From positions 7,314-71,313 of the forward strand of contig DAMU01000036.1 in NCBI GenBank assembly GCA_002499705.1: 64,000 nucleotides of DNA, written 5' to 3'. The notes beneath the pieces are model-generated. The model saw nothing but the letters and a program-made list of their open reading frames with translations, did no database searches and had not been told where the DNA came from. Position 1 is the first letter of the stretch, and each line of letters begins with the position of its first letter. Shown here in pieces: positions 7,222-53,253 of the stretch. Both the position numbers and the translations under genes were made by a program. The stretch comes from Euryarchaeota archaeon UBA91. Its GTDB lineage: Archaea > Thermoplasmatota > Poseidoniia > Poseidoniales > Poseidoniaceae.

Positions 7222-7262
7222 GTGTGTGCGTAGTAATCCCACATTATAGGCTTCTCTCCGTT

Positions 7263-9332: not shown

Positions 9333-9510
9333 GCAGCCGTTTTGACCCCGCAAAATAGCCCAAAAAGAGGGGTTGGAAAACGGGTGTGAAATGTGACACA
9401 GCGTTGCTTTCATATGTCGTTATATCAGCGGAGTCATTAAAAGAGGCTCTCAAGTGGCGAAGACGCTTCAGCCTTGCTGCTGTCGCGTAAACACCTTTGA
9501 GGGAAAAAAA

Positions 9511-24974: not shown

Positions 24975-25032
24975 AGTCTCAACGCTCACGAAAGGGGAAC
25001 TATTGAAACGGAGGAAAACCGGAGAGAAGATT

Positions 25033-27558: not shown

Positions 27559-28035
27559 TCAGTCATAGGTCTGTGGCCGATCGTATTGCAAGGTCGTCAT
27601 CCCATCAGAATGTACGACCCATACTGAAGTGACGCCTGCAAGAACTACAGTACCTTGATGTCCACCAGCTCCAGTGCCAGAGATTGAAACATTGGTATCG
27701 AGTGTCCCTCCCTCATCAATCAATTCTATTGAGGTGTCTGTTAGGATAATTTTCATCTGCGATTCATCCGCTTCAGTAAGTCTCCAAGTCACTTTTTCAG
27801 CATAATCAATTGCGCCCATACGACTTGCTTCGTCTGCACGTTCGACTGCTGCAGCAAGGTCGTCAAGATTTGATTGAATTGCATTTTCATTCCATCGTTC
27901 ACGGGTTGCAGTCTCAATCTCATAGGCCCACAAACTGAACATGGTAAGGAGTAAGACACCCAAAAGGAACGTGAAAATGTAACCCAACTCTGTTGCAGCA
28001 GCACGTTCATCGTGCATGAATCGCTTTGATTTCAT
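27559..28035 (-). CDS. Small pilin-like protein with class III (type IV prepilin-like) signal peptide
   Basis: N-terminus MKSKRFMHDERAAATELGYIFTFLLGVLLLTMF is a charged DER-A motif followed by a hydrophobic helix. It is the last gene of a three-gene minus-strand operon whose genes overlap by 4 nt (ATGA). Confidence 0.55.
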   Translation of the reverse strand: MKSKRFMHDERAAATELGYIFTFLLGVLLLTMFSLWAYEIETATRERWNENAIQSNLDDLAAAVERADEASRMGAIDYAEKVTWRLTEADESQMKIILTDTSIELIDEGGTLDTNVSISGTGAGGHQGTVVLAGVTSVWVVHSDGMTTLQYDRPQTYD

Positions 28036-32424: not shown

Positions 32425-35400
32425 ATGCGTCGTAGTTTAACCACTCTTCTAACCACACTTGCTGTTGTAGCAAGTCTGGTGTTCATGTCACAATTTCCAG
32501 CAATTTCGCCGGTTTCGAATTTGCATCCAGATACCACGGATGGCTCCAAGCCCCCATCGACAGATACCGACGGAGATAAAATCCCAGATGTCCATGAAAA
32601 TCTGTTTGAGGAATGGATGAATTGGAGTACTGTTGATGGCCGAATCATTGTCATGCCAGGCATGGACAGTAACAATGCGTCCGATGCATTGGTGGATAAT
32701 GACCGAGATGGTTTGAATGCTACCGAAGAATTTTGTTGGCCTTATCCCGCAAATTGTACTGCTCCTGGATTCCCTCGCGGACTGACTGGGGTTGTAGACA
32801 GTGAGGGTGAGCGCAGTTATCTTGACCCTCGTGTCTCTGATACAGATGGAGATGGAATGCCTGATGGATATGAAGCATACATGTGTGAACGCGTTGGCGG
32901 TTTCAACATATTTTCGCTCAAGTATGAGTGCCAAAACTTCGACCCTCTAAACGGATCTGATGTTTACGATGATCCTGATGAAGATGGATTTGACGTTAAT
33001 CGAGACGGCGTATTATCAACCACTGAACGCTTTTCATCTCCGGAGGAATACATTTACGGAGCGCCATTGAATCATACGACTGAATTGGACGGCATGTGGT
33101 GCTCTGCAACATTACCTGAAGGCTCAGTCTTCAAGAACTGGCCATTTATTCCAACCGGCCCTAATGCTACTTTCACAAATCTACTCTCAGCATGTACTGA
33201 GAATGCCACGATGGTCATTGACGAAGACATTTGGCTAGGAACTGACCCTCTTCTTGCAGACTCTGACCGCTACCATTGGGATGGCTTTTCAATTCGCAGA
33301 CTTTTCCCTTCTTTCGGAGATGGGATTCCAGATGGATGGGAAGTCCATTTCGGCCTAGAACCACTTAACCGGACCAATGCTCTTCTCGACCCAGACTTGG
33401 ATGGTTGGGATGCGAACCGAGATGGGGGAGTCTCTCCGGATGTAAGTCGTACGTTAACAGCACTGGCATTAGGTGAATCATTGTCTACATTGGAAGAGTA
33501 CTTCGTCCATGAGGATAATGGAAACTCCGTACTTCCTGGTATGAAATCAGTTCTCCTTGGCAACCAACTTGATACTCACGAATCAATGCCTCTGAGCTTT
33601 GTCACACCTGCTGAAGAAATGAGCCTCATACATTACGATCTTCGTGATTTAGAAAGTGATGGGACGATGCTTTATGCAACAACTCGATACGGCGTAACGG
33701 TTTTTGATTTTGAACAGTCCGTGAATTATGATCATTGGATGCCTCAAGGTGTTGAGTTGCATGAGTCTCTTCTTCTTTCCTTACAAGATACCAGTTTTGC
33801 TTTAGCCCTTGCAACAAATGTTGGATTGGCAGTCGCCCCTCTTCAAGCCAATGGTGATCTCGCTCCTCTGGAAAGTTGGTCATGGTCGCTATCTGAAGAA
33901 ATTCACGCACTTGCCGCATTGAACATTGAAGGTCAAAATCAGCAAATCCTCGGCTTAGGTCAATCCGGTCAAGGAGCTGTTTTTGAAGTCACCACATTAT
34001 CACAAATCGCTCAACAATATTCCATTGCGGTAGGACTTGAAACAGCCCTTAGTCAATCGAATGCAAGCGTAACTAGCATTGCACATGGTGCAGCAGGTGG
34101 AGGAAATAATACGCTCTATGTCGGAACCGATAGAGGGTTAATTATCGGTGAGACTTCAACGGCCCGTGGTATGTTTGAACCGACTTGGCGATTTTATTAC
34201 ACCCCCGAAGTGACGCCGTATCCAACAGCAATCGATGAAATTCGCTCTCTCTCTCTGGGCATGGTTGCCAATCCGGCAGAGGTTCGAACGATGGTGCTTG
34301 ATGGACCTACACCCAGCAATGCTCAGGTCTTGTGGTTTGGAACTCCTTCTGGAGTTCATATGATGAATCTCCTTGACAATTCGATTTCACACAGTGGATT
34401 ATTGGAGCACCCTGGAGTCGAAGGCAAATACCTGCGTGAATACAATAACGTCCATTCAATTCTCCCTACTGGTGATGAACTTTTGATTGGTTCAGACAAG
34501 GGGCTTTGGGCTATTTCCGGTGATTATTCTGCAGTCTATGGCTTCCAAAACCAGGAAACAGTCTATGGAGAAATTGTCACTATCCAAACAATTACAGTTG
34601 ATGAAAATACAACAATTTACACTGGTTCCGCACCAGGGAAATACGCAAATCTTGAATTGATGAACCCTGGAGCAAATGATTCCGATAATGATGGTATGCC
34701 GGATGGTTGGGAAGTCGCCAATGGTTTGGACCCAACAGATCCTTGGGACTCACTTTTTGATATGGATGGAGACGGTATAGACCTCGACCAATCAGGTGAT
34801 GGTTTCTTAGAACGACTTTGGACGAATTTAGACGAGTATCGATTCGTTAGTCAGACGACTGCAGGCTACAATTCAACCAATCCGAAAGCGGGTGATACCG
34901 ATGGTGATGGATTGGGCGATGGTAGTGAGTACTTTGGGTTCTTTTACGAAAATTCTACTCTCTGGTGCCACTATACGGTCCAAATGGAATACATTTGTGA
35001 TGATGCAGCCGGACAAGCAGCGAATGCGACTTATCTCGGTCTTTCCAGCAGCGACAGAGGTACTGACCCAACAAATTTCGACAGCGATGGTGACGGCATG
35101 CCTGATGGATGGGAAATACACCATCGACGATGGATTGGTTCTTCGTTTACCGGTGGTAATAACTGGACTCTGGACCCGAATCGCGCCGAAGATGCAAATT
35201 GGGATGCAGACCGTGATGGTTTAGCAAATCTATGCGAATATCAGTGGTCGCTTGTACGAAGTGCAGCAATTGAAGGCTTGTTACTCGAATCTCATGGAGA
35301 AACGGTCAATGCGAGTCTGGATTGGTTTGATGCTGACCCAAACAACATTGATTCTGATGGTGATACGTTGCCTGATGGTTGGGAATCTGGCGGCGCTTGC

Positions 35401-38178
35401 ACTTGGGACCCTTCTCGCCAAGGTGTGAACCCGCTCAACGCCTCAGACCTCTTTGAAAATCCAGATGGAGACGGATATGACATCAATCATGATGGAGTCT
35501 TAGACGACAACGAAGCCTTTGTCAACTACTTAGAATTCCATATTCGTTCTGACTTATTCAGTGGTAATCAGACCCTTGATGGTGTGGCTTTACCTAACGG
35601 ATTCTCAACTGACCTCTTTTCGAATGTCAGTTCATTTGGAATTCCAGAAGCGAACTTTGGTGAACGTGCATCAGGCTCAGTCACCGCCCTTCAATCAATT
35701 ACTGATGTTGGCTCATCTGACCCATTCAACGCAGATTCGGATTCAGATGGAATGCCGGATGGATGGGAGATTTGGTTTGCTCGCTGGAATGTTCTCGATG
35801 ATGGATGGACGTTGAATCCTCTTGATTCATCTGACCGTTGGGAAGACGCAGATGACGATGGAATGGCGAATTGGGAAGAATACAATGCTATCTCTCCTGA
35901 ATATACCGAAACAGATCAAAATCGTTCAGCTCCACAATGGTTTGTCACAACCGTCGGTTCAGCATTTGCTTTGCAACAATGGCCTGGTAACTCTGTTGAG
36001 TTCTCCTTTGGTTCATTCATCACTCAAGACCAAGTGAACCTTACCGGATGGACATGTGACCCAAACAATGTCGACACAGATGGGGATGGCATGATTGATG
36101 GCATAGAACAATTGTTCACCTCATGGAATCTCACCGCCGAAACTTGGACGCTTAATCCGTTGGTTGCAGGCGATGGTGATTTCGATGGAGATGCGGATGG
36201 GCTGATTGATAGCCAAGAATTTGCAATCGCTGTCGAGGCCCCAACCAATGGTTTAGAGCACCCCTCAGATGCTCCTCTGCTCCACCTTGATGGAGATGTC
36301 CAACAGCCTACTGAGAAGGCACAACGGGTGTTTAACATTCTCATCACCAAAGAGACACGAGGTAAGCGTCTGTTAAACGACTTCAACGACTGGCAAGCAG
36401 GAGTTCCTCCAAATGCGATTCTCTCGACACTTCTTGGAATGTCTGATCCAACAAATCCTGACACAGATGACGATGGCATGTATGACGGTTTTGAGTATTG
36501 GTTCACCGAATGGGATCTAGAAGAAAACCGATGGAGTATGAATCCACTCATCGACAGTGACGTTAATCTTGATACGGATGGCGATAGTTTCGATTGCGAT
36601 GGTGATGGGAATATCTCGATGGAGGAACGTTTCTCCAATTTACGTGAATGGGAGTCTCGCACATATGGGAAATACCTCGAGCGTTTCTCGGTCCCAGTTG
36701 ACAAAGGAATCGTTAACTTTGGCGATGACGCTATGCAGGCTTACATGGAAGAACAGGGCATGAATCTTCTTCAAGCGCAGCAAGCACTGTACACTGATTT
36801 CGCATCCAAGAGTCAATCGAGTGCAGACAGAATGGCCATGATCAATGAATTTAATCAAGATAATTTCAATCGCACTTTACTTGGAATCTCAGACCCAACC
36901 AATTCCGATTCTGATTCTGATGGAATTGAGGATGGATGGGAATATTGCTATGCTGTCTTCGGCATGGAAGATCCTACGACCATCAACCACTGGGCTGCAA
37001 ACCCTCTCAACCCTTGGGATGTTAATTACGATGGAGACCGTGATGGATGGTATGGCCGTACCGTCTTTGACCAGCCTGCCACGCAAGGCAGTTGGTCAGG
37101 TCGAGTATTTACTCCCGGAACCGCAGTCGTTCAGTCTGGACTTGGCGATTTGCCTTTCACTAACTGGATGGAATGGGATAACATGACGCGTCCTGATTTG
37201 AACGATTCAGATGGAGACAGTATTTCCTATTCAACAGTAGTCTCGAACGGAGCAGTTGTTTACCATCAGCAAGATTTCAATTTATCAGATGGTCGGGAGG
37301 TGTTCAAGTATGGAATTAACCCGAGTGATAATGATTCTGATGGCGATATGCTACCAGACTGGTATGAGTATTCGAAAGCTTGGAATGAATCAAACGACAA
37401 CTTTAGTTCGTTTTTACAAATTCAGGTTATTTGGATTGATGCTGCTACTGGAGGTGCATGTTCCACCGATACAAATTCCTGTCTTCCTCTATCCCAGCAA
37501 GGAGCCAATGGAATACTTTCACGTCCAAATCTCGCCTCGACTTGGTTTACTTTGAATCCTGCCGATCCCGTAGATGCTAATTACGACCCTGACCAGGATG
37601 GAAATTGGGATTGCAGTGGCGCAGGATGTGTCTATGAGCCTTATACGAATTTCCAAGAATTTTTCAGTATCACTGACACTGACCTCTCCTCGCCTAATGC
37701 GGTGCGACTTAGCGGAATGATCTATGATGGCGAAGTTGTATTGGAGTGGTGGCAGTTAAGGGCAGCACTCTTGAAGCTCGATTCATCCGGAGTAAGTAGC
37801 GAAAATTACTTGAAAATGGATAAATCCTTTGCCAATGATATTCGATTTGCTTACATCGTCGATGACAGAGATACGAATTTCCTCGTTCTTGATTCCAGTG
37901 ATGATGTAATTCATTTGGCAGGAAATCGAACCGATTCATGGGATATGTATTATGTCGGTTCGCCAAATACTGCACCTGTGAGGGCCGTCGGTGAACATGA
38001 ATTCGGATGGTATCTGCTCGACTTAGACAACGACCACATCGCAGAGGGTACTGACCCTACGAACTGGGATACAGATGGTGATTGGATGGTTGATTGGTTT
38101 GAAGTTCATGATGATGAAGAAGACGGAATTCGTGGAGATTCTTCACCGATTCGTTATGATTCTCGTCAAACTGGATGA
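32425..38178 (+). CDS. Giant secreted protein (1917 aa) built from thrombospondin-type-3 / dockerin-like Ca-binding D-x-D-x-D-G repeats; no C-terminal TM anchor
   Basis: Signal peptide MRRSLTTLLTTLAVVASLVFMSQFPAISP. At least 15 repeats such as DTDGDGMPDGYE, DSDNDGMPDGWEV, DSDGDGMPDGWEI, DSDSDGMPDGWEIWF, DTDDDGMYDGFEYWF, DSDSDGIEDGWEY and DTDGDWMVDWFEV. A central Gly/Ala-rich region (about aa 370-700) may be a propeller. The C-terminus ...DSSPIRYDSRQTG has no hydrophobic segment. Confidence 0.7.
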   Translation: MRRSLTTLLTTLAVVASLVFMSQFPAISPVSNLHPDTTDGSKPPSTDTDGDKIPDVHENLFEEWMNWSTVDGRIIVMPGMDSNNASDALVDNDRDGLNATEEFCWPYPANCTAPGFPRGLTGVVDSEGERSYLDPRVSDTDGDGMPDGYEAYMCERVGGFNIFSLKYECQNFDPLNGSDVYDDPDEDGFDVNRDGVLSTTERFSSPEEYIYGAPLNHTTELDGMWCSATLPEGSVFKNWPFIPTGPNATFTNLLSACTENATMVIDEDIWLGTDPLLADSDRYHWDGFSIRRLFPSFGDGIPDGWEVHFGLEPLNRTNALLDPDLDGWDANRDGGVSPDVSRTLTALALGESLSTLEEYFVHEDNGNSVLPGMKSVLLGNQLDTHESMPLSFVTPAEEMSLIHYDLRDLESDGTMLYATTRYGVTVFDFEQSVNYDHWMPQGVELHESLLLSLQDTSFALALATNVGLAVAPLQANGDLAPLESWSWSLSEEIHALAALNIEGQNQQILGLGQSGQGAVFEVTTLSQIAQQYSIAVGLETALSQSNASVTSIAHGAAGGGNNTLYVGTDRGLIIGETSTARGMFEPTWRFYYTPEVTPYPTAIDEIRSLSLGMVANPAEVRTMVLDGPTPSNAQVLWFGTPSGVHMMNLLDNSISHSGLLEHPGVEGKYLREYNNVHSILPTGDELLIGSDKGLWAISGDYSAVYGFQNQETVYGEIVTIQTITVDENTTIYTGSAPGKYANLELMNPGANDSDNDGMPDGWEVANGLDPTDPWDSLFDMDGDGIDLDQSGDGFLERLWTNLDEYRFVSQTTAGYNSTNPKAGDTDGDGLGDGSEYFGFFYENSTLWCHYTVQMEYICDDAAGQAANATYLGLSSSDRGTDPTNFDSDGDGMPDGWEIHHRRWIGSSFTGGNNWTLDPNRAEDANWDADRDGLANLCEYQWSLVRSAAIEGLLLESHGETVNASLDWFDADPNNIDSDGDTLPDGWESGGACTWDPSRQGVNPLNASDLFENPDGDGYDINHDGVLDDNEAFVNYLEFHIRSDLFSGNQTLDGVALPNGFSTDLFSNVSSFGIPEANFGERASGSVTALQSITDVGSSDPFNADSDSDGMPDGWEIWFARWNVLDDGWTLNPLDSSDRWEDADDDGMANWEEYNAISPEYTETDQNRSAPQWFVTTVGSAFALQQWPGNSVEFSFGSFITQDQVNLTGWTCDPNNVDTDGDGMIDGIEQLFTSWNLTAETWTLNPLVAGDGDFDGDADGLIDSQEFAIAVEAPTNGLEHPSDAPLLHLDGDVQQPTEKAQRVFNILITKETRGKRLLNDFNDWQAGVPPNAILSTLLGMSDPTNPDTDDDGMYDGFEYWFTEWDLEENRWSMNPLIDSDVNLDTDGDSFDCDGDGNISMEERFSNLREWESRTYGKYLERFSVPVDKGIVNFGDDAMQAYMEEQGMNLLQAQQALYTDFASKSQSSADRMAMINEFNQDNFNRTLLGISDPTNSDSDSDGIEDGWEYCYAVFGMEDPTTINHWAANPLNPWDVNYDGDRDGWYGRTVFDQPATQGSWSGRVFTPGTAVVQSGLGDLPFTNWMEWDNMTRPDLNDSDGDSISYSTVVSNGAVVYHQQDFNLSDGREVFKYGINPSDNDSDGDMLPDWYEYSKAWNESNDNFSSFLQIQVIWIDAATGGACSTDTNSCLPLSQQGANGILSRPNLASTWFTLNPADPVDANYDPDQDGNWDCSGAGCVYEPYTNFQEFFSITDTDLSSPNAVRLSGMIYDGEVVLEWWQLRAALLKLDSSGVSSENYLKMDKSFANDIRFAYIVDDRDTNFLVLDSSDDVIHLAGNRTDSWDMYYVGSPNTAPVRAVGEHEFGWYLLDLDNDHIAEGTDPTNWDTDGDWMVDWFEVHDDEEDGIRGDSSPIRYDSRQTG

Positions 38179-38249: not shown

Positions 38250-41200
38250 ATGCAGAACGATTTGTCGAACGGGCGCGGCGTAATGTTTGTACTGTTCTTC
38301 ATAATGGTACTCGCTCCAATGGGTCCTATGGCGGATGTCGTTGTCGGTTCTGCTGACGCAACAGGGGTTTCACGCCACGTTTACTCGCTCCATGATGGGT
38401 CAACAGAGTATGTAGCACTGTATCAAGGTGCAAACCCTGACACTGGTGCTATGGTATCCTTACCGAAAGGTGCCCTTGTTACTGACGTTTCTCTCACACT
38501 TTCCGGCGCCTCTGCTACGGGATGGAGTCAAACTGCTACTGATGACCGAGATGAATGGATTTCTGGTTCTTCATCAGCTACGGATGACCGAAGCGACGAG
38601 TTAGGACTTGCTTTTTCAAACCGTTCGACAACATTCTTCCCTCATGGTTATGATGAAGTGGAGCATCCTTCCTCCGATGCATGGCTCGATAATGGATCAT
38701 ACGCTATCCGTCAGCCTCACACTTCAAATTCTACAGAAAGCAGATTTTCCCAGCAAGCTCTCAAAACGTCGTCAAGTTTGATGAAACAAAGCCAAGGAGC
38801 GATTTTGAAACACCACGATTGGCTTTTCATGTCGACATGGAGTTCTTCCTCATTCCATAACATCGTTCACAGACTTTATCCAAATAACGCAACGAAGGAA
38901 TCCGTCATTACACTTGACCAAGGACAGTGCACCATTGCCAGCCTTCACCCAAGTTCATATTATGGAAGTTATGGTTTCCGTGACTGGACAATCACTGATG
39001 ATGAGCGTATGTTTGCGATTCTTTCTGGATATCGATACCATTACTCTTCTTCAGCTCCAACTCAATATCACCGCGTACTTGAGATGGACATTTCTCGTGA
39101 CGATACATGGACCTGTATCGATTCATATGACGTCTCTCCGCAGTACTCAGACTACACCGCTATTGCGTATGACCGGACATCCGATGAAGTTTGGATTGTT
39201 CACAACGCTCAGCGCCGCATCGTTCCTTACACTTTTGGCGACCAGCCAGACGGTCAATACACTCGTGGCCAAGATATGTATTCGTATTCTTCATCATCCG
39301 GAAGTTCTTGGGAATGTGGAAAAACCGGCCAACAAGTGCGTGGTTTGGAAGTAAACCAAAGCACTTTTTTCATGCGTTGCCAAAAGGGCACCTCGAGTCA
39401 AGACAAAGACCAGCTTGAGGCTTGGACTATTTCCGGTACATCCACTTCTCTCGTTCCGCAATCGGGTACTCGATTGCTTTCAACTCTCGGTTATGGATTG
39501 CAATATGATGGGTCTCGATTCGTTACTGTAGACTGCGGGTATTCGACTTGGTCTTCTGCAACTTTGTATTACCGTGAATACGGCACAGGATGGCAGTTCA
39601 AGACAACACCTGCTCCGGGAACGACTACGTGGTATGGCCCTGTAACTGAATCATCAGATCCGATTTTAATGGTAAATATGCAAACATATTCTTCTGCAGC
39701 CTCCATTGGTGATAGAGTCGATTACTGGGTTTCTGCTGATAATGGAACGCATTGGGAATCTGTGGAATCAAATTCGACCATTCATTTTTCATACCCCGGA
39801 ACTGAATTAGTTTGGAAAGCTCAGTTGATTGGTTCTACTGCAGTATCTTGGTGGGTGGACTTAGAATATTCGACAGAATATGCATCCTCTGGCAGTTGGA
39901 CTTCACCGCCGTTTACTACGGGTACGAAAATTGGGAAGGTGAAGCCGAATTGGGTTGCTGATGTTCCTTCTGGAACTTCTGTAGTCGTTCAAGTTTCGAA
40001 TGACAACGGTTCGACATGGCTTCCAGCAACAAATAACCAAGAGGTAAGTTTCCCATCAACTGAGGCTGGAAATACAATCAAATATGCAGTAAGTTTGTCA
40101 ACAACCGATGTTTCTCTCTCCCCCTTGATTGATTCAATCACGATGGAATACGAAGAAGGATATCCTGACCGTCCGAAACTGGATATCGGAAATGATTTGG
40201 TTTGGGATTGGGAATCTCTTCTTTTCCTGAATGAATCAGCAGTAACTGCCTCTGACCAATCCGTAGTGAATGATGAAGTTCAGGCACAACCAACGCTCGT
40301 TCAAGCGTTTAATTCGTTTATTCCTCAAAACGGTGATGGCGACGTGCTTATTCCTATTGCAGTCAAAGCAGCCTCATCCGGTAGGGTGAAGATTTCCAAC
40401 ATTGACATCGCCTACAAAATGCAAACACGTGCAATTGACGCTTCACTCGAAGGAGGTCTTCTTTCGCCTGATGGTATATCTCGAAATTTACAGGTTCGTA
40501 TCGCACCTGGTGATGAAGTTGACAGAGTGACTGAATCGCTTATTGCTCTAAATAATTCATACGGCGAAAATCCAGCGTTTGATTGGCAGCGTGGTGATAC
40601 ATGTTCTGTAATTAGTGATGCCGGTGGCATTGTTCAATTCGATGTAGCAAACTGTACTTCAACAATGGACTCATTCGGCGAAGTTACGATTCGAATACCG
40701 GTAGCTGTAAACTGGACTTGGGATGACGAAAGCAGCATGCAGGCCTTGATTACAGTCGAAGATGACCTCGGACAGGCAGTATCTGCTTGGGAAACTGAAG
40801 ACTTGGATATCATTGTTGAAAATGACATTCAACTTGATGGTCTACGTGTTTTCGAGGAAACTGGACGTGAGCTCTACTCTCAAGACTGGGTGCGAGGCGG
40901 ATTCAATCTCTCATTCACTGGTCAGATATTTTTCCAAAATTCTCAACTCACGCCTTTGGGTGGACAATTCGCACTACGAGTCCTCGGACAAAACGTGACG
41001 TATGATGGCGATCCTATCGGGGAGCCTATTCTGTTGGCCCAAGAACAGAATCCAGCATTTGGTGAATACAATATCACTTTCCAATCACCGCTTGAATCCT
41101 CACCAGGAGGAATGGTTTTCTATGTCGAGGCTATTCAATTGAAGAACGGCTCAACCTTTGCTAACCCGGGATACAATACCATACGACTGGTTTTAGATGG

Positions 41201-43685
41201 CAACTCCCCGATTGTTTTGTCTTCGACTCCAGGTGACGGAACTGAACGTCACGCAGGACCGCCAGCCCCTGGTGGTCAGCCAATCAGTATTATGATTCAA
41301 GATTCCGTAGATCCTCCAAACCAAGTCACTTTGAATTATTGGATTGGGTGCAAAGCGAGCGATTCACTTGGTTGCAGTGATTACAATTTTGATGGATTGC
41401 CGAATTCAGATGAATACGAGATGAAGGTCCTCACTTCCCCGGATACTCAAGTCGGTGGGCTGAATATCTTCGATGGATTGATTGATGATTCTATGCTTCT
41501 ACATGGTCAACGTGTGTCGTATTTCATCACCGGAAAAGATGCACAAGATAACGCAATTGCAGAAGGCGGAGGTCCTGTTTGTCCTGACAGCAACATCGCC
41601 TGCGGATACGTTCCCGGCGAGGTTATGCCTGACTGGGACAATGACTTGGGAACCTATAACATACGTGTGGAATTTGAACCGCAGCTCGACTTGGATAATT
41701 CGACTATTTTAGGTCACGATGACAAAGCACCCTTACACCCGGGTATACCATACACCGCTCAAATCGTACTCTCAGACCGTAACGGTTGGGAAGACATTCA
41801 ATACATTCAACTGGCGCTTGGAGGCGACTTCAATGATGACGAAACATCATTGTTCATTTCACTCACGAAAGGAATGGATGGAGCACCAGTCGCTGTAATG
41901 ACATCTGGTTCTGCTAACATCGCAGTTTCGAATCTTTACTCAAGTGTGGACTTGGATGAGAATAACAACAGCATCATCAAAATCCTAGCACGCTTCCAAC
42001 TCACGTGGACGTTCCCTGAATCCTTTGATACAGATGGATTAACTCAAATCACTCCGAAGATTCTTGTTACAGATCTGCCCTGTAATGTGGGGGAAGAGAC
42101 ACCATGCTTCGAAGCAACAGCTGGTTTGGGCAACGATGCTTGGAGTCTTGACAACGATTTCCGATTCGATACCATGGAGGGGCACATTCGTGCAGTTGAA
42201 CTTCGAGATGGAACCAATCATTACAATTCCGACTTTACAGAAACCCTCATCGGTGCTGGTCAGGCCTTACGAGTGAACGGTCGTGTTCTGTTCTCTGAAG
42301 ATGAGACACCTGCTCCTGCAGGTGCATTTGATGTTGTCTTTGGAGACTATGATAATACTTGGAAAACATCAACGCGCAATGATGGTGAGTTCAGCCTTGA
42401 TTTGCTGATACCATCCGTGCCTTCTGGACATCTTGACTTGCGTTTGGGTCTAGGGGATTTGCCAGGTTTAGCTATGGATGAGACACCGACTATACAGCGA
42501 GTTCGTCTTGCTGTTGACAACTCACGCCCTACCATTGCAGCAATTACTCTTGACGAAGTTTCGGCTGGAAACGATTTGTCAATCGGAGCTTGCGGTGACC
42601 TGTTAGTCATGCTTGAAACCATTGATGACTATGGCTTTGACCTTACAGAACCAGCGGTGTTGCATTATCGTGTTCGGGCAGGAGAGGCTGAGATCTCACG
42701 AGGCAGTGTTCCGCTACCTGATACTACTCCGTTTGGTGAACAATTTTTCTGGACTGGTAATCTCGACCTCACTGATTCAGGAGCCACTACGCTTTTGCCG
42801 TCCTACATGGTTGACGTTTGGGTTTCAGGTTCAGACTCTTCAGGTAACCCGTTTGATACGCTCGGTAATTCCATTTCCCAACCAATCGCATCATGGTCGC
42901 TGGCTCTACTCGGGCCAAGCATTGACTTGAATTTGCCAACAAGTACATTCTCTTGGGATGACCCAAGTCCAATCACCGGGCAAGAAGTTGGACTCGAGTT
43001 TGAAGTTCGTAATCTCGGAGGAAAGGGCGATGTTGCTTTCATTCTCCAGCGAGCAGTTGATGGAGGGTTCTGGCAAGATACCTCACGCATTGACCTCGTA
43101 GCATCAGCCGGTTCGACAGTCGTTGGAACTCTACCAACGGTGGCCGATGTTGATGCGGGCGACAGTATTCAGTTCAGAATCGTCATCTTGGTTGATGAAG
43201 TCGAGATGGATCGAAAGACACTGGATCCTTTGCTGGTTAAAGAAGAAACAATTCGAGATGGTGAAGCACTTGCATTACAAGCCCAAGAAGGGGCATTCAG
43301 TATCGTTCTTTACCTGATTGCTCTTGTATCTCTAAGCCTTGCAATGTGGTTGCTTGTTATGAATCGAAGAATACGTGAAGGTGAACTCGAAGGTGGAGTT
43401 GAAGACCAGACTGAAGAAGTCCTTGAGGACCTCGCAATCTCGAAAACTCTCCCCGCAATCGATACCAATGTTCCTCCTCCAGCCGGGTTAATTCTTCCAC
43501 AACCGGCTGCAACACCCGCACCTGCAGTTGTTCAACCTGCACCAGCACCCCAACCCGAGCCTGCTCCGCAACTCGATGCTCCACGTGCTCCGCCTCCCCT
43601 ACCGCCGACCGGTTTGCCGCAAGGGTGGACTCAAGAACAGTGGAATCACTTCGGCTGGGACTATGTCAATGCAATGAAAAAGTGA
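38250..43685 (+). CDS. Giant surface protein (1811 aa) with signal peptide, C-terminal TM helix and Pro-rich cytoplasmic tail ending in a PPLPPxGLPxGW-EQW-GxDY motif
   Basis: ATG with GGGGGAG upstream. Signal MFVLFFIMVLAPMGPMADVVVGSADA. Long Ser/Thr/Asn-rich extracellular beta-rich region. TM helix FSIVLYLIALVSLSLAMWLLVM (nt about 43294 onward). Tail ...PPPAGLILPQPAATPAPAVVQPAPAPQPEPAPQLDAPRAPPPLPPTGLPQGWTQEQWNHFGWDYVNAMKK. Confidence 0.7.
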   Translation: MQNDLSNGRGVMFVLFFIMVLAPMGPMADVVVGSADATGVSRHVYSLHDGSTEYVALYQGANPDTGAMVSLPKGALVTDVSLTLSGASATGWSQTATDDRDEWISGSSSATDDRSDELGLAFSNRSTTFFPHGYDEVEHPSSDAWLDNGSYAIRQPHTSNSTESRFSQQALKTSSSLMKQSQGAILKHHDWLFMSTWSSSSFHNIVHRLYPNNATKESVITLDQGQCTIASLHPSSYYGSYGFRDWTITDDERMFAILSGYRYHYSSSAPTQYHRVLEMDISRDDTWTCIDSYDVSPQYSDYTAIAYDRTSDEVWIVHNAQRRIVPYTFGDQPDGQYTRGQDMYSYSSSSGSSWECGKTGQQVRGLEVNQSTFFMRCQKGTSSQDKDQLEAWTISGTSTSLVPQSGTRLLSTLGYGLQYDGSRFVTVDCGYSTWSSATLYYREYGTGWQFKTTPAPGTTTWYGPVTESSDPILMVNMQTYSSAASIGDRVDYWVSADNGTHWESVESNSTIHFSYPGTELVWKAQLIGSTAVSWWVDLEYSTEYASSGSWTSPPFTTGTKIGKVKPNWVADVPSGTSVVVQVSNDNGSTWLPATNNQEVSFPSTEAGNTIKYAVSLSTTDVSLSPLIDSITMEYEEGYPDRPKLDIGNDLVWDWESLLFLNESAVTASDQSVVNDEVQAQPTLVQAFNSFIPQNGDGDVLIPIAVKAASSGRVKISNIDIAYKMQTRAIDASLEGGLLSPDGISRNLQVRIAPGDEVDRVTESLIALNNSYGENPAFDWQRGDTCSVISDAGGIVQFDVANCTSTMDSFGEVTIRIPVAVNWTWDDESSMQALITVEDDLGQAVSAWETEDLDIIVENDIQLDGLRVFEETGRELYSQDWVRGGFNLSFTGQIFFQNSQLTPLGGQFALRVLGQNVTYDGDPIGEPILLAQEQNPAFGEYNITFQSPLESSPGGMVFYVEAIQLKNGSTFANPGYNTIRLVLDGNSPIVLSSTPGDGTERHAGPPAPGGQPISIMIQDSVDPPNQVTLNYWIGCKASDSLGCSDYNFDGLPNSDEYEMKVLTSPDTQVGGLNIFDGLIDDSMLLHGQRVSYFITGKDAQDNAIAEGGGPVCPDSNIACGYVPGEVMPDWDNDLGTYNIRVEFEPQLDLDNSTILGHDDKAPLHPGIPYTAQIVLSDRNGWEDIQYIQLALGGDFNDDETSLFISLTKGMDGAPVAVMTSGSANIAVSNLYSSVDLDENNNSIIKILARFQLTWTFPESFDTDGLTQITPKILVTDLPCNVGEETPCFEATAGLGNDAWSLDNDFRFDTMEGHIRAVELRDGTNHYNSDFTETLIGAGQALRVNGRVLFSEDETPAPAGAFDVVFGDYDNTWKTSTRNDGEFSLDLLIPSVPSGHLDLRLGLGDLPGLAMDETPTIQRVRLAVDNSRPTIAAITLDEVSAGNDLSIGACGDLLVMLETIDDYGFDLTEPAVLHYRVRAGEAEISRGSVPLPDTTPFGEQFFWTGNLDLTDSGATTLLPSYMVDVWVSGSDSSGNPFDTLGNSISQPIASWSLALLGPSIDLNLPTSTFSWDDPSPITGQEVGLEFEVRNLGGKGDVAFILQRAVDGGFWQDTSRIDLVASAGSTVVGTLPTVADVDAGDSIQFRIVILVDEVEMDRKTLDPLLVKEETIRDGEALALQAQEGAFSIVLYLIALVSLSLAMWLLVMNRRIREGELEGGVEDQTEEVLEDLAISKTLPAIDTNVPPPAGLILPQPAATPAPAVVQPAPAPQPEPAPQLDAPRAPPPLPPTGLPQGWTQEQWNHFGWDYVNAMKK
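43593..43682 (+). other. Conserved cytoplasmic C-terminal tail motif PPLPPTGLPQGWTQEQWNHFGWDYVNAMKK (copy A)
   Basis: The last 30 codons of the 1811-aa gene. Its paralogue is at 53167-53250. Confidence 0.6.
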
Positions 43686-43694
43686 GTTGTTTGA

Positions 43695-44147
43695 ATGACT
43701 GACACAGGGGCTACTCCCATCGACGGAATGGTGACATTGCAAGAACGGATGGTGAACCTCATCAATCAACTGAACATGCCTCTAATTGAAGTCAGCCTGG
43801 TTCTCAGCAAGCACATTGCAGGACTTTCTCGTTCATTAGATGAACATATCAACGAAACTCAGCAGACATTTTCTGAATCGGTAACGCATCCTTGGGATAT
43901 AGAAACACCCGAAGACCCAGAAAATGAGTTTAGTTTTGATCTTGAAAAAATATTCAAAATCATTGATGCTGACAGGATGGACATTCTCGCTACCCTTATT
44001 CGAGTGACACTCGTTGAAATTGATGCGTCATTGGCTGAAGGATTACTTGCGTTACGGCCATGGGAGGCACTTTCTCGTACTCAGTTGTCAAAGGCAAAGG
44101 GGCCTGGACAACTCTTCTCACCCCTTGAAATTCCAGAAGACTGGTGA
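43695..44147 (+). CDS. Small acidic hypothetical protein (150 aa), likely co-transcribed with the 1811-aa giant gene
   Basis: Starts 9 nt after the giant gene's stop (tgagttgtttgaATG). No TM helix. Acidic (many D/E), with a conserved-looking core and a C-terminus EIPEDW. Confidence 0.5.
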   Translation: MTDTGATPIDGMVTLQERMVNLINQLNMPLIEVSLVLSKHIAGLSRSLDEHINETQQTFSESVTHPWDIETPEDPENEFSFDLEKIFKIIDADRMDILATLIRVTLVEIDASLAEGLLALRPWEALSRTQLSKAKGPGQLFSPLEIPEDW

Positions 44148-50325: not shown

Positions 50326-50493
50326 AATTAGCTTAGACGATAGGACGTTATTCTTTCACTTGTTTTTTTGTTTTCGCCATCGATTACACTGTCAATTGAG
50401 AAATCATTGATGGATTGTTTAGGACTCATACATCGAGAATTGTTTGCCTATGAAGTGCAAGGTATGATAGGCAATAGTGAATTGGAATGCAAC

Positions 50494-53253
50494 ATGGTGA
50501 ACAAACAGGTATCCATCGTGCTACTCAGCATTTTGCTGTTTTCTATTCCTTCTCACGCAGTTGCTACAAAGGAGGCTACCTTTGTGGAACAATTTGGAGA
50601 GGTGTTTGAAGAAGTTGTTATTGCCGACTCTTCCGATATGCTTGACGACCCCCGAGACCTTGAATTTCACCCTGGCCGAACCAATGAACTTTGGGTAGCC
50701 AACCGTGCTACAGACAGCATCACTATCATCGAAAACACTGGCATGGAGTCTCAGACCTCTCAAAATCGTCAAGATTCCAACAGAAATCATTTCCTTGAAG
50801 AAGTCAGTTCAATTGCATTTGGCGCCTACCATCCAGAGTTTGACTGGCAATGGGGTTCTGCCCAAGAAACTGGTAATACCTTCTGTGGCCAAATTCAACA
50901 GAATTTCTTCATGGGACCAACACTCTGGCCTTCTTCTTTGAACCATTTTGCAGTCGAAAACCAAAACAACGGTAATGGGCTACTTGGAAGCCATATTGAT
51001 ATGAATCACGAATCTCCATACGGAGTTGGAATTGCTCATGATTATGACAATGTTTACTGGTATAACGACGGCTACTACGGCGAACTTGTTCGCTACGATT
51101 TCCAAGATGACCATGACACTGGTGAAGACGACCATTCAGACGCAATCATCCGTCGATATTCCGATATTACTCTCACGCACGCCTACGGCATACCCGGGCA
51201 CATGGTCATGGACAAGAGTTCAGGTATTCTCTACATCGCAGATGCCGGAGCAAATAGGGTTCTTTGGGTTAATACCGATGATACGAATTTCGAGACCGAG
51301 GACATTATGGACGATGCGTCTCGCCTTGAGCCATTGCAAGAATATTCCAGAATAACGGACATTGAATGGGGAGTTCTCGCCTCGGGACTTGACTTTCCTT
51401 CTGGAATTGCACTCGACGGTGACCGGCTGTTTGTCTCTCAGAACGGTAACGGTAAAATCGTCGCCTATGACTTGAATTCAGACGGTAAAAGCGCTACTGA
51501 AGCGGATTCTATCCAAACCTCAGCCTCTTCGATAATGGGACTGGAAATTGGACCAAACGGGCATCTGTTTTACGTTGATAACGGAAGAGATGAGGTCGTT
51601 CGGATTGATCCATTTATGGACGTAGATGGCGATGGAGTCGGTGACGATGTAGATAATTGCCCCTACATTTCAAACTCTGCTCAGGCTAATTATGATAACG
51701 ATTCCAAAGGGGATGCTTGTGATGAGGACGATGATAATGATTCAGTTCTCGACATAGATGACAATTGTCTTCGAGGTAATCTCTCTTGGATTTCTTCTAT
51801 GCTGACTGATCACGATTCGGATGGCTGTGCCGATTTGACCGAAGACTTCGATGACGATAACGATGGCCTATATGACCAGATAGATTCGTGTGCACTCGGT
51901 GACGTTGGTTGGACTTCTTCTGCTCTTACGGATTATGATTTCGATGGATGCCAAGACGCTGGTGAAGATTACGATGATGATAACGACCGAATTTGCGATG
52001 CCGAAGAAGTCGATGGTTTCTGGGCTTGCACTGAATCCTCTGCTTCCGCTGATTTGTGTCCTACCAGCCCTCCATCCTTCTTTTCCACTTTAACAAATGA
52101 TGGAGATCAAGACGGTTGCCAAGATATTGGTGAAGACCTCGACGATGATAATGACGGCTTCTTTGACGAACTCGACCATTGTCCGGTCAATGCCGGAACC
52201 AGTAACCTCGGTTCGCTGATGGGATGTTCCGATTTTGATAATGATGGCTATGCCGATTCAATCGATGAGTTCCCCACTGAACCCACCCAGTGGTCAGACC
52301 TCGATGGTGACGGATTTGGCGATGAATCAACTGGGTTTGAAGGCGACCAGTGCAAGACGGTTGTAGGCACTTCGTTTGAAGACCGCATTGGCTGTCTCGA
52401 TTCGGATGATGATGGCTGGTCTGACCCTGATTCGACATGGACAACAAGCTCCGGCGCTGATGCGTTCCCAACGTATTACAGTCAGCATGTTGATCAAGAC
52501 GGTGACGGTTATGGCGATGCAGCCAATGGCTTCCAAGCAGACATATGCCCTTTGATTGCCGGTACATCTTTCCAAGATGTGTTTGGATGCTTAGACTCCG
52601 ATGGTGACGGATGGTCAGATGCAGGAGATGCTCTGCCAGAAGACCCAACTCAGTATTTGGATGCAGACATGGACGGCTATGGCGATTCTATGTCAGGTAA
52701 TCTCCCTGACAGTTGCCCTGGCTTGTTCGGACTTTCATCGTCCGAACGATTTGGATGCCCTGACTCTGACGGTGATGGATGGGATGACGGTTTAGATGCA
52801 TTCTCTGAAGATGACCGATTTTGGTCGGACGCTGATGAAGATGGACATCCGGACCAGACGGGTACAGAATTGAGCGATGATTGTCCTGAAGTTGCTGGAA
52901 ACTCAAACCAAGATCGTATCGGATGCCCTGATGCAGATGGAGACGGTTGGTCCGATGAAGCAGATACCTTCCCGCAAGATGCAACTCGGCATGTCGCCTC
53001 TGAATCTTCCTCTCTGACTCTTCAGATTGGTCTTGCAGGTTTTGCAGTGCTCATTCTTCTCGCACTTGTTGCAGTGTTTGTAACTCGTCGTGACGGTAAC
53101 TCGACAATGGATTTGACACCTCAACCGGTAACACCTCAACTGAATGCTCCAATGGTCGCCAACACTCCACCACTTCCACCAGAGGGCCTACCTGCCGGCT
53201 GGACGATGGAGCAATGGGCATGGTACGGCGAAGATTACCTCAAGAACCGTTGA
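50494..53253 (+). CDS. Secreted protein with beta-propeller-like N-terminal region, Cys-containing thrombospondin-type-3 Ca-binding repeats, C-terminal TM helix and PPLPPxGLPxGW-EQW-YGxDY tail
   Basis: The track ORF starts at 50368. The ATG at 50494 (MVNKQVSIVLLSILLFSIPSHAVA) gives a signal peptide. Repeats DVDGDGVGDDVDNCPYISNSAQANYDNDSKGDACDEDDDND and multiple D-x-DGDG-Y/W-xD...C-P-x-x-AG-x-S-x-x-D-R-x-GC units. TM helix LQIGLAGFAVLILLALVAVFV. Tail ...PPLPPEGLPAGWTMEQWAWYGEDYLKNR. Confidence 0.7.
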   Translation: MVNKQVSIVLLSILLFSIPSHAVATKEATFVEQFGEVFEEVVIADSSDMLDDPRDLEFHPGRTNELWVANRATDSITIIENTGMESQTSQNRQDSNRNHFLEEVSSIAFGAYHPEFDWQWGSAQETGNTFCGQIQQNFFMGPTLWPSSLNHFAVENQNNGNGLLGSHIDMNHESPYGVGIAHDYDNVYWYNDGYYGELVRYDFQDDHDTGEDDHSDAIIRRYSDITLTHAYGIPGHMVMDKSSGILYIADAGANRVLWVNTDDTNFETEDIMDDASRLEPLQEYSRITDIEWGVLASGLDFPSGIALDGDRLFVSQNGNGKIVAYDLNSDGKSATEADSIQTSASSIMGLEIGPNGHLFYVDNGRDEVVRIDPFMDVDGDGVGDDVDNCPYISNSAQANYDNDSKGDACDEDDDNDSVLDIDDNCLRGNLSWISSMLTDHDSDGCADLTEDFDDDNDGLYDQIDSCALGDVGWTSSALTDYDFDGCQDAGEDYDDDNDRICDAEEVDGFWACTESSASADLCPTSPPSFFSTLTNDGDQDGCQDIGEDLDDDNDGFFDELDHCPVNAGTSNLGSLMGCSDFDNDGYADSIDEFPTEPTQWSDLDGDGFGDESTGFEGDQCKTVVGTSFEDRIGCLDSDDDGWSDPDSTWTTSSGADAFPTYYSQHVDQDGDGYGDAANGFQADICPLIAGTSFQDVFGCLDSDGDGWSDAGDALPEDPTQYLDADMDGYGDSMSGNLPDSCPGLFGLSSSERFGCPDSDGDGWDDGLDAFSEDDRFWSDADEDGHPDQTGTELSDDCPEVAGNSNQDRIGCPDADGDGWSDEADTFPQDATRHVASESSSLTLQIGLAGFAVLILLALVAVFVTRRDGNSTMDLTPQPVTPQLNAPMVANTPPLPPEGLPAGWTMEQWAWYGEDYLKNR
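53167..53250 (+). other. Conserved cytoplasmic C-terminal tail motif PPLPPEGLPAGWTMEQWAWYGEDYLKNR (copy B)
   Basis: The last 28 codons of the 961-aa gene. It aligns with copy A at 43593-43682 with identical PPLPP, GLP, GWT, EQW and G-DY positions. Confidence 0.6.

What the first reader, a model, noticed from the sequence alone, without database searches (positions are those of the whole stretch)
43593..43682. Two giant surface proteins share a conserved post-TM cytoplasmic tail: PPLPPxGLPxGWTxEQWxxYGxDY
The 1811-aa protein (38250-43685) and the 961-aa protein (50494-53253) have unrelated ectodomains. Both finish with a single TM helix followed by a Pro-rich linker and nearly the same final 25-30 residues.
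- Copy A: PPLPPTGLPQGWTQEQWNHFGWDYVNAMKK.
- Copy B: PPLPPEGLPAGWTMEQWAWYGEDYLKNR (nt 53167-53250).
The DNA encoding the two tails is not identical. Conservation is therefore at the protein level under selection, not a recent duplication. A conserved cytoplasmic tail on otherwise different envelope proteins suggests a shared intracellular partner, for example a sorting, anchoring or turnover receptor, or cytoskeletal tethering. Polyproline (PPLP/PPxY-like) and Trp-rich motifs are classic peptide ligands for SH3, WW and GYF-type domains. I do not recognise this as a described archaeal sorting signal; it is not PGF-CTERM or any other C-terminal sorting class I know.
Basis: seen in the sequence. 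Interest (0 to 1): 0.75.

Follow-up and report, generated by a model that had tools for sequence, protein, structure and literature searches.

The report
Shared cytoplasmic tail tag, MGII archaea
Two unrelated giant surface proteins in this window end in the same ~30-residue intracellular tail, and this undescribed tag sits on at least ten different families of surface proteins across the abundant marine archaeal order Poseidoniales (Marine Group II), which points to a shared but still unknown partner inside the cell.

Summary
Both window proteins are built the same way: signal peptide, large ectodomain, one C-terminal TM helix, basic residues, Pro/Ala-rich linker, then PPLPPxGLPxGWTxEQWxxYGxxY and the stop codon. 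The tail is their only significant similarity (E 3e-10). The two DNA copies differ at nearly every synonymous site.

A 32-position profile finds 628 representative proteins (50%-identity clusters) among 1.84 billion, nearly all with the match at the extreme C-terminus. Of 122 matches, 121 are this C-terminal module in Poseidoniales-type contigs of both families. They sit on about 10 ectodomain groups, including S8 subtilase, RCC1, ASST-like/TSP3, PKD/CARDB and Ig-like proteins.

Pfam, NCBIfam, PDB sequences, fold libraries and the literature search gave no match. It is not PGF-CTERM-like and not a WW domain. AlphaFold2 models the 32-mer confidently (pLDDT 88) as an ordered extended Pro-rich segment followed by a 14-residue aromatic helix.

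Best reading: an order-specific cytoplasmic docking tag held on a flexible tether. The partner was not identified. The neighbouring 150-aa protein is linked only to copy A's orthologues.

The parts
38250..43685 (+). Carrier A: 1811-aa type-I surface protein with no Pfam domains.
   Evidence: ORF and translation. No Pfam or NCBIfam hits. The exact sequence is in public MGII assemblies, in a cluster of 58 members all unnamed or 'hypothetical'. Orthologues are in L099 and L077.
38277..38348 (+). Carrier A N-terminal hydrophobic signal sequence (GVMFVLFFIMVLAPMGPMADVVVG).
   Evidence: Read from the translation. No signal-peptide predictor was available.
43296..43361 (+). Carrier A C-terminal TM helix (FSIVLYLIALVSLSLAMWLLVM), followed by NRRIRE.
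   Evidence: Positive-inside statistics over 117 carriers are.
43362..43589 (+). Carrier A cytoplasmic linker: 76 aa, acidic then Pro/Ala/Gln-rich, presumed disordered.
   Evidence: Linker composition over 117 carriers is P 13.8% and A 12.5%, with length 24-137 aa and median 67. The linker has low pLDDT in the AF2 model of a related tail.
43590..43682 (+). Tail module copy A: PPPLPPTGLPQGWTQEQWNHFGWDYVNAMKK, then the stop codon.
   Evidence: The same tail flavour (HFGW[DQK]Y[VI]..[ML].K) occurs in P0005, P0014, P0019, P0051 and L099.
50494..53253 (+). Carrier B: 919-aa type-I surface protein with an NHL/ScyE-like beta-propeller region and thrombospondin type-3 calcium-binding repeats.
   Evidence: Orthologues are 911-936 aa (L007, L018, L101, L114). 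The database cluster contains 919-aa members.
50494..50565 (+). Carrier B signal sequence (MVNKQVSIVLLSILLFSIPSHAVA).
   Evidence: read from the sequence.
53014..53082 (+). Carrier B C-terminal TM helix (LTLQIGLAGFAVLILLALVAVFV), followed by TRRDG.
53083..53166 (+). Carrier B cytoplasmic linker: 28 aa, Pro/Thr/Gln-rich.
53167..53250 (+). Tail module copy B: PPLPPEGLPAGWTMEQWAWYGEDYLKNR, then the stop codon.
   Evidence: AF2 of this 32-mer gives mean pLDDT 88.2 with a helix over MEQWAWYGEDYLKN.

Best explanation
The ~30 residues are an autonomous C-terminal module specific to Poseidoniales and located in the cytoplasm. The consensus is PPLPxxGLPxGW-T-M-E-Q-W-x-x-Y-G-x-x-[YW]-L.

Predicted architecture: a proline-rich extended segment and a Gly-Leu-Pro-x-Gly-Trp turn, followed by a 14-residue helix. 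The conserved residues M, W, Y/G and Y/W-L fall on one face of that helix. I infer that this face packs against the prolines, giving a PPII-plus-helix miniprotein of the pancreatic-polypeptide or Trp-cage kind.

The module hangs on a 24-137-residue disordered Pro/Ala-rich tether behind the single C-terminal TM anchor. The carriers are many unrelated, Sec-exported type-I surface proteins: proteases, propeller/TSP3 proteins, and PKD/CARDB/Ig adhesin-like proteins.

The most likely function is a common docking tag. One cytoplasmic or membrane-peripheral partner would recognise the same tail on a whole set of exoproteins and so position, cluster, retain or couple them.

Shown: the module, its position, its topology, its purifying selection, its order-wide spread over many ectodomain families, and the absence of any known family match.

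Inferred: the packed fold, and the existence and role of a shared partner.
For: - Conservation and selection: only the tail is shared between A and B, and synonymous sites are saturated. In 123 tails the positions not fixed by the search pattern are P-10 92%, P-9 88%, L-8 79%, P-7 100%, G-4 100%, L-3 96%, Y+9 97%, G+10 100%, W/Y+13 96% and L+14 82%.
- Spread: 628 representatives at E <= 1e-3 and 251 at E <= 1e-10 among 1.84e9 proteins, almost all ending within 0-3 residues of the C-terminus.
- Many-to-one logic: about 10 ectodomain clusters carry the tail, with S8 subtilase+CARDB, RCC1+ephrin-receptor-like, ASST-like+TSP3, PKD/CARDB, Ig_VWA7/NPCBM_assoc, or no Pfam domain at all. Different clusters co-occur in single MAGs, e.g. 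QQSI01 with L087, L095 and L120.
- Selectivity: other C-terminally anchored surface proteins in the same window lack the tail, namely 9454-19086, 5572-7284(-), 3225-4154 and 20586-24974.
- Topology: N-terminal signal sequences, and K+R of 0.23 before the TM against 1.67 after it.
- Structure: AF2 of the 32-mer gives mean pLDDT 88.2, with 24 of 32 residues >= 90. The non-helical residues 11-17 lie in a block with mean 93, and the helix spans 18-31. In a longer tail the motif stays ordered (71-84) while the linkers fall below 52.
- Modularity: one orthogroup appends a second short motif, LLDDLDL-COOH, after a further disordered linker. This is the typical layout of docking peptides.
Against: - No partner was found. 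Neighbouring genes are orthogroup-specific synteny (LonB, thermosome, adenylate kinase and others), with no gene shared across carrier groups.
- The conserved helix face may be used entirely for intramolecular packing. The solvent-exposed helix face varies between orthogroups, which fits less well with one universal partner.
- The packed fold could not be inspected, because no coordinates or PAE were returned.
- AF2 confidence on short peptides can be inflated.
- Topology rests on hydropathy and the positive-inside rule, not on a dedicated predictor or an experiment.
Confidence: 0.5

Rival explanations
1. Self-association module. The tails bind each other, as PP-fold peptides dimerise through their aromatic helix faces. 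Different surface proteins would then be clustered into patches or a coat without any separate partner.
For: The conserved aromatic stripe with an invariant Gly in mid-helix suits close helix-helix or helix-PPII packing. No partner gene was found by neighbourhood analysis. Carriers sometimes lie close together in the genome, about 7 kb apart in the window and two within 8 kb in L046 and L079.
Against: AF2 already reaches high confidence for a monomer. Long flexible tethers of variable length are not obviously needed for lateral clustering.
Confidence: 0.15
2. Biogenesis, quality-control or turnover signal. The tail would be read by a membrane-associated protease or chaperone (for example LonB, FtsH or Cdc48/proteasome) or by an insertion factor that controls how much of these very large exoproteins reaches or stays in the membrane.
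For: The position at the extreme C-terminus with a free carboxylate is typical of degrons and recognition tags. The largest carrier group lies next to archaeal LonB in 25 loci. Only a subset of anchored proteins carries the tail.
Against: The LonB adjacency holds for one orthogroup only and looks like plain synteny. The residues after the helix, the actual C-terminal end, are the least conserved part. Some carriers extend 30-100 residues past the motif, so a free C-terminus is not required.
Confidence: 0.17
3. Interfacial membrane anchor. The Trp/Tyr-rich helix would lie in the inner-leaflet headgroup region and fold the tail back onto the membrane, with no protein partner.
For: The segment has a high aromatic content (W, W, Y, Y/W, L) of the kind seen in membrane-proximal Trp-rich regions.
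Against: The invariant polar residues T, E and Q, the invariant prolines and glycines, and the exact spacing argue for a specific fold or interface rather than generic partitioning. Aromatic residues are concentrated on one narrow stripe next to an invariant Gly. A 24-137-residue tether serves no obvious purpose if the helix simply returns to the membrane.
Confidence: 0.08
4. Signalling peptide released by regulated intramembrane proteolysis. The tail would be freed after the ectodomain engages a substrate or is shed, and would then bind a cytoplasmic regulator such as a TPR/STAND-HTH protein.
For: This is only circumstantial. A HTH-STAND-TPR protein (24883-27558) is encoded overlapping the end of another tailed surface protein in the window. 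TPR domains are known peptide binders (own knowledge).
Against: That STAND gene follows a protein with a different tail. No intramembrane protease linkage was seen in 120 neighbourhoods. There is no evidence of cleavage.
Confidence: 0.05
5. Chance similarity of two low-complexity Pro-rich tails, or a recent duplication or gene conversion between the two genes.
For: The flanking linkers are proline-rich and low in complexity.
Against: Profile E-values go down to 6e-16 against 1.84e9 proteins, and there are hundreds of carriers. The conserved part is the aromatic, non-repetitive block. The DNA copies differ at nearly all synonymous sites.
Confidence: 0.01

Closest known systems
Prokaryotic C-terminal sorting domains with a dedicated processing enzyme (PGF-CTERM/archaeosortase A, LPXTG/sortase, PEP-CTERM/exosortase, GlyGly-CTERM/rhombosortase, MYXO-CTERM)
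   Same: A short, lineage-restricted C-terminal tag shared by many otherwise unrelated surface proteins in one genome. The logic is many substrates to one presumed reader, and a TM helix and basic residues are part of the C-terminal region.
   Different: The order of elements is reversed. Here the TM helix and basic residues come first, then a 24-137-residue linker, then the conserved motif. The motif is therefore cytoplasmic and far from the membrane, whereas sorting signals place the motif outside, immediately before the TM. The module is longer (~30 aa) and is predicted to be folded. There are no NCBIfam or Pfam sorting-domain hits above noise; the best is GVDTG_CTERM at E 0.036 on the TM segment only.
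WW domain, and proline-rich ligands of WW, SH3 and GYF domains (PPLP, PPxY, PxxP, PPGW)
   Same: LPxGW[TE] resembles the first strand of WW domains. PPLP is the class-II WW ligand consensus (own knowledge).
   Different: hhalign aligns only 9 columns, with probability 42%. Pfam WW gives no hit even at E <= 10. AF2 predicts a helix where WW domains have strands 2-3. PPGW occurs in only ~12% of tails, and no conserved basic residue flanks the PxxP. No WW, SH3 or GYF protein was looked for genome-wide.
PP-fold and Trp-cage miniproteins (avian pancreatic polypeptide, NPY, PYY)
   Same: About 30 residues: a polyproline segment, a tight turn, then an aromatic amphipathic alpha-helix whose Tyr/Trp face could interdigitate with the prolines. 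The comparison to the PP-fold comes from my own knowledge.
Cytoplasmic-tail adaptor motifs of eukaryotic type-I receptors (integrin NPxY-talin, PPxY-Nedd4) and the Pro-rich cytoplasmic tails of Mycoplasma adhesins that link to the terminal-organelle cytoskeleton
   Same: Large surface proteins with one TM helix and a short conserved or Pro-rich intracellular tail that couples them to an internal partner. Relatives of Poseidoniales (Thermoplasmatales) lack an S-layer and carry an unordered glycoprotein layer (PMC12448462).
   Different: There is no sequence relationship. No partner or cytoskeleton is known in Poseidoniales, and the envelope of Poseidoniales is itself uncharacterised. The analogy is functional only and rests on my own knowledge.

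Membership tests
PGF-CTERM / other exosortase-, archaeosortase- or rhombosortase-type C-terminal sorting domains | Tripartite order: signature motif, then TM helix, then a short basic cluster at the very C-terminus | tested here: not met
   The order here is TM, then basic residues, then a 24-137-aa linker, then the motif.
PGF-CTERM / other exosortase-, archaeosortase- or rhombosortase-type C-terminal sorting domains | Match to a curated sorting-domain HMM (NCBIfam/TIGRFAM) | tested here: not met
   NCBIfam 20.0 gives only sub-threshold noise on the TM segment of copy B: GVDTG_CTERM at E 0.036 (14.4 bits against a cutoff of 29) and Synerg-CTERM at E 0.16. Nothing matches the motif itself.
PGF-CTERM / other exosortase-, archaeosortase- or rhombosortase-type C-terminal sorting domains | Co-occurrence with a dedicated processing enzyme in the same genomes | not testable with these tools
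   Whole Poseidoniales genomes could not be scanned. No candidate enzyme recurs in the 120 neighbourhoods.
WW domain | A ~35-residue three-stranded sheet with two signature Trp residues 20-22 apart and a C-terminal Pro, matching Pfam WW | tested here: not met
   No Pfam hit at E <= 10. hhalign aligns 9 columns only, probability 42%. The Trp residues are 5 apart, and AF2 predicts a helix.
GYF-domain ligand | Conserved PPG[WFYML] core | tested here: not met
   The residue before GW is Pro in ~12% of 123 tails. E, A and D are more common.
Canonical SH3 ligand | PxxP with a flanking conserved Arg or Lys (class I/II) | tested here: not met
   PxxP is present (P-10..P-7), but the flanking positions are G/A/S or variable with no conserved basic residue.
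Class-II WW ligand (PPLP) | A PPLP core accessible in a disordered region, and a WW-domain reader in the same organism | tested here: inconclusive
   The PPLP core is 79-100% conserved. AF2 places it in an ordered unit. No reader was searched for genome-wide.
PP-fold / Trp-cage-like miniprotein | A PPII segment packed antiparallel against an aromatic alpha-helix in ~30 residues | tested here: inconclusive
Any Pfam-A, NCBIfam or PDB-sequence family | A significant profile or sequence match | tested here: not met
   Against PDB sequences the best E is 0.85, from fragments of DHFR-TS, CaiT and urocanase.

The most novel reading that the evidence does not exclude
Poseidoniales use a cytoplasmic 'tail code'. 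A folded 30-residue miniprotein tag on a flexible tether would couple a whole set of exoenzymes and adhesins, and possibly the bulk of the cell coat of these probably S-layer-less cells, to a submembrane scaffold or signalling hub. This would be an archaeal counterpart of eukaryotic receptor-adaptor or adhesin-cytoskeleton coupling. The additional tail motifs seen here (LLDDLDL-COOH and DPYAWAK...HPGWLWDxxxNxWVPDPNY) would be further words of the same code.
Probability: 0.3. Interest if true: 0.85.

Novelty: new variant of a known kind. Interest (0 to 1): 0.62.

Why it matters
Marine Group II archaea are among the most abundant planktonic archaea. They are uncultured and their cell envelope is unknown. 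Their large surface proteases and adhesin-like proteins are thought to underlie their role in degrading high-molecular-weight organic matter.

A single, strongly conserved intracellular tag on at least ten families of these proteins gives three practical handles:
- a sequence marker (a 32-position HMM) that picks out a defined subset of the surface proteome in any metagenome;
- a short synthetic peptide that can be used directly as bait to find the intracellular partner;
- a candidate autonomous miniprotein fold.

Conserved cytoplasmic tail modules shared across unrelated surface proteins are, to my knowledge, not a described feature of prokaryotic cell biology.

Tried and rejected
- Pfam and NCBIfam on the tails: nothing.
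- Literal-motif full-text search, six keyword literature searches and two papers read: no description of the motif.
- PDB sequence search with the profile: noise only.
- WW-domain homology: rejected.
- IMG/VR viral contigs scanned with the DNA pattern: 0 matches, so there is no sign of viral carriage.
- Neighbourhood analysis of 120 loci for a shared partner gene: only orthogroup-specific synteny.
- The 150-aa neighbour as a general partner: rejected, because it is linked only to copy-A orthologues.
- Counting carriers per genome: failed.
- A tail-partner complex prediction could not be run, because the structure tool takes single chains only.
Full report
**1. What is in the window.** ORF 38250-43685 (+, 1811 aa) and ORF 50494-53253 (+, 919 aa from the ATG; 961 aa only if counted from an upstream TTG at 50368) both start with a hydrophobic signal sequence. 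Each then has a very large ectodomain and ends in the same arrangement: a single TM helix, Arg-rich residues, a Pro-rich linker, the conserved block and the stop codon. The blocks are PPPLPPTGLPQGWTQEQWNHFGWDYVNAMKK (43590-43682) and PPLPPEGLPAGWTMEQWAWYGEDYLKNR (53167-53250). A six-frame regex scan finds no third copy in the 64 kb.

BLASTP of the whole proteins gives one significant HSP, the tail (25/42 identical, E 3e-10). All other HSPs have E > 0.7. Carrier B has an NHL/ScyE-like propeller region and thrombospondin type-3 repeats. Carrier A has no Pfam or NCBIfam domain. At the DNA level the two tails differ at almost every synonymous third position while the amino acids are kept. This means old divergence under purifying selection, not a recent copy.

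**2. It is a widespread, order-specific module.**
- A profile of the two tails retrieved 58 short proteins or fragments from 5.8e9 clusters, all ending in PPLPPxGLPxGWTMEQWxxYGxxYL. Where named, they come from Euryarchaeota, Poseidoniaceae or Thermoplasmatota MAGs.
- A 32-position profile of 39 tails (A3) was scored against every one of 1.84e9 representative proteins. It found 628 with E <= 1e-3 and 251 with E <= 1e-10. Among the 150 listed, the match almost always ends 0-3 residues from the protein's end. Lengths range from fragments up to 1219 aa.
- Of the 122 matches, 121 are this C-terminal module in Poseidoniales-type contigs from both families, Poseidoniaceae (MGIIa) and Thalassarchaeaceae (MGIIb). 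They include the original Iverson MG-II chromosome CM001443.1 (L097). One of these contigs, L119, is labelled 'Yoonia sp.' but carries MGII genes. The one exception, L040, is an internal PIGWTMEQW in a gammaproteobacterial contig. The same short motif matches PDB urocanate hydratase chains weakly, so it looks like a chance urocanase match.
- In all 121 the motif closes a large ORF of about 360 to more than 1700 aa, is preceded by PPLPxxGL, and in nearly all of them has a strong hydrophobic 19-mer 24-137 residues upstream.
- Positions that my pattern did not fix are still highly conserved in 123 tails: P-10 92%, P-9 88%, L-8 79% (otherwise V or I), P-7 100%, G-4 100%, L-3 96%, Y+9 97%, G+10 100%, W/Y+13 96%, L+14 82%.
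- IMG/VR viral contigs contain no match.

**3. What carries it.** Ectodomains of 100 carriers, with the last 150 residues removed, fall into 10 BLAST clusters. Pfam on representatives gives the following:
- S8 subtilase + CARDB + NPCBM_assoc (~1590 aa);
- RCC1 repeats + ephrin-receptor-like (1531 aa);
- arylsulfotransferase-like propeller + TSP3 (873 aa);
- CARDB/PKD (~1250 aa);
- Ig_VWA7/NPCBM_assoc/CARDB (~1230 aa);
- several groups with no Pfam domain at all.

Each orthogroup keeps its own flavour of the last ~10 residues. Copy-B orthologues of ~915-935 aa end in AWYGEDYLKNR. The copy-A type ends in HFGW[DQK]Y[VI]. Others are YYGQQYLDxM, AYGH[LIV]WWEQN and HYGHEWLKRQG. Each orthogroup also sits in its own conserved synteny: LonB, thermosome, adenylate kinase and others. 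These are therefore old, vertically inherited genes dispersed around the genome.

Different clusters co-occur in single MAGs, for example QQSI01 with L087, L095 and L120. The tag is selective. Other C-terminally anchored surface proteins in this very window lack it: the 3210-aa ORF at 9454-19086, plus 5572-7284(-), 3225-4154 and 20586-24974.

**4. Topology and anatomy.** The carriers have N-terminal signal sequences. The ten residues before the TM helix average 0.23 K+R, against 1.67 after it, over 117 carriers. By the positive-inside rule the tail is cytoplasmic. This is an inference, since no dedicated predictor or experiment was available. The linker is 24-137 residues long (median 67) and rich in Pro (13.8%) and Ala (12.5%).

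AlphaFold2 on the 32-residue tail of copy B with the 39-sequence alignment gives mean pLDDT 88.2, with 24 of 32 residues >= 90. Residues 1-17 are an ordered non-helical stretch, and the block covering residues 11-20 has mean pLDDT 93. The helix spans 18-31, MEQWAWYGEDYLKN. On the helix, the conserved M, W, Y-G and [YW]-L lie at i, i+3, i+6/7 and i+10/11, which is one face. Positions +7/+8, +11/+12 and +15/+16 vary between orthogroups.

A second model, of a longer tail (P0048), keeps the motif ordered (pLDDT 71-84) while the linkers fall below 52. So the picture is an ordered bead on a disordered string.

**5. Comparison with what is known.**
- Pfam-A (2025), NCBIfam 20.0 and PDB sequences give no significant match.
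- A literal-motif full-text search, six keyword literature searches and two papers read turned up no description. This includes the paper on Poseidoniales-specific protein families (PMC9258230).
- All database members are 'hypothetical protein'. The exception is one 46-aa fragment labelled 'lytic transglycosylase, partial', which consists only of this tail and is presumably an annotation artefact.
- The module is not a PGF-CTERM-type signal, because the order of elements is reversed and there is no HMM match.
- It is not a WW domain. hhalign aligns only the 9-column LPxGW stretch, with probability 42%.
- It is not a GYF ligand, since Pro precedes GW in only ~12% of tails. It is not a canonical SH3 ligand, since there is no flanking basic residue.
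- PPLP does fit the class-II WW ligand core, but here it is part of a larger ordered unit, and no reader was sought genome-wide.

**6. Mechanism.** The pattern is one invariant tag, many unrelated cargoes and a long flexible tether. The location is cytoplasmic and only a subset of anchored proteins is labelled. In one PKD/CARDB orthogroup a second short terminal motif, LLDDLDL-COOH, follows a further disordered linker. This pattern is best explained by a docking tag read by a shared cytoplasmic or membrane-peripheral partner. I put that at about 0.5.

The rivals are:
- self-association of the tails (0.15);
- a biogenesis, quality-control or turnover signal (0.17);
- an interfacial membrane anchor (0.08);
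- signalling by released tails (0.05);
- chance or recent duplication (refuted).

Two points weaken the favoured reading. No partner gene is linked to the carriers. The exposed helix face varies between orthogroups. It is not found near any other carrier group. At best it is a partner specific to that one protein.

**7. Verdict.** The finding is real, statistically secure and much larger than stated. It is an undescribed, order-wide C-terminal cytoplasmic module on at least ten families of Poseidoniales surface proteins. Its function remains inferred.

I rate it a new variant of a known kind: a shared C-terminal tag on surface proteins, but with inverted architecture and an intracellular location. 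Interest is 0.62. If a dedicated intracellular reader or scaffold exists (probability about 0.3), it would be a new element of archaeal cell biology.

Noticed in passing
window 20586-24974 (+), tail at about 24800-24971; related fragments P0260-P0283: Another giant surface protein (1462 aa, beta-helix + Big_7) has its own conserved cytoplasmic tail. After the TM helix comes an acidic juxtamembrane stretch with DPYAWAK, then a Gln/Pro/Ala linker, then HPGWLWDxxxNxWVPDPNY near the C-terminus. It is conserved in 24 metagenomic fragments, apparently a single orthogroup. The GWxWD...WxPDP pattern looks like a compressed WW or DUF2510-like motif.
   Followed up: partly
window 24883-27558 (+): The ORF overlapping the end of that beta-helix protein is an 891-aa HTH + STAND NTPase (AAA_16/nSTAND6) + TPR protein. 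TPR domains bind peptides, so this protein type is a speculative reader of cytoplasmic tails. It was not tested.
   Followed up: no
L019, L028, L039, L042, L046, L058, L072, L079, L081, L110, L111, L116; P0048, P0102, P0104, P0153, P0159 and others: One PKD/CARDB orthogroup (~1200-1290 aa) has a bipartite tail. The core module is followed by a 25-95-residue P/Q/T-rich linker and an acidic terminal motif [SD]LLDDLDL/F-COOH. AF2 predicts this motif as a short helix with pLDDT about 69.
   Followed up: partly
window 43695-44147 (+): A 150-aa acidic protein with no Pfam or NCBIfam match starts 9 nt after carrier A's stop codon, in the same frame. It is conserved at 53-56% identity directly downstream of copy-A orthologues in L099 and L077 only. 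It is widespread in MGII assemblies (seen on 51-66 contigs per sequence variant).
   Followed up: partly
window 27559-31324 (-): Three consecutive ORFs have archaeal type IV pilin-like N-termini (for example RRDQRAVSEVLGVVMMLAMVI). Pfam gives sub-threshold Pilin_N and DUF7289 hits, so this may be a pilus or minor-pilin cluster beside the giant surface-protein genes.
   Followed up: partly
window 9454-19086 (+) and 32425-38178 (+): Two further giant proteins of 3210 aa and 1917 aa. The first ends in a TM helix plus a short basic tail without the module. The second, rich in TSP3-like DxDxDG repeats, has no C-terminal TM helix at all. The region from about 9 to 53 kb is effectively an island of very large surface proteins.
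   Followed up: no
Database records: MBP77814.1/MBP77822.1 ('Deltaproteobacteria bacterium CL926'); L119 ('Yoonia sp.' MAG contig CAXRJJ010000022.1); MBT5025791.1: Contigs carrying these MGII genes are deposited under bacterial MAG names, which probably reflects mis-binning. A 46-aa fragment made only of the tail module is annotated 'lytic transglycosylase, partial', which is probably a spurious name.
   Followed up: no
window 50368-50493: The longest ORF for carrier B starts at a TTG 126 nt upstream of the ATG. Database orthologues are 919 aa, so the ATG at 50494, directly before the signal sequence, is the likely start.
   Followed up: yes
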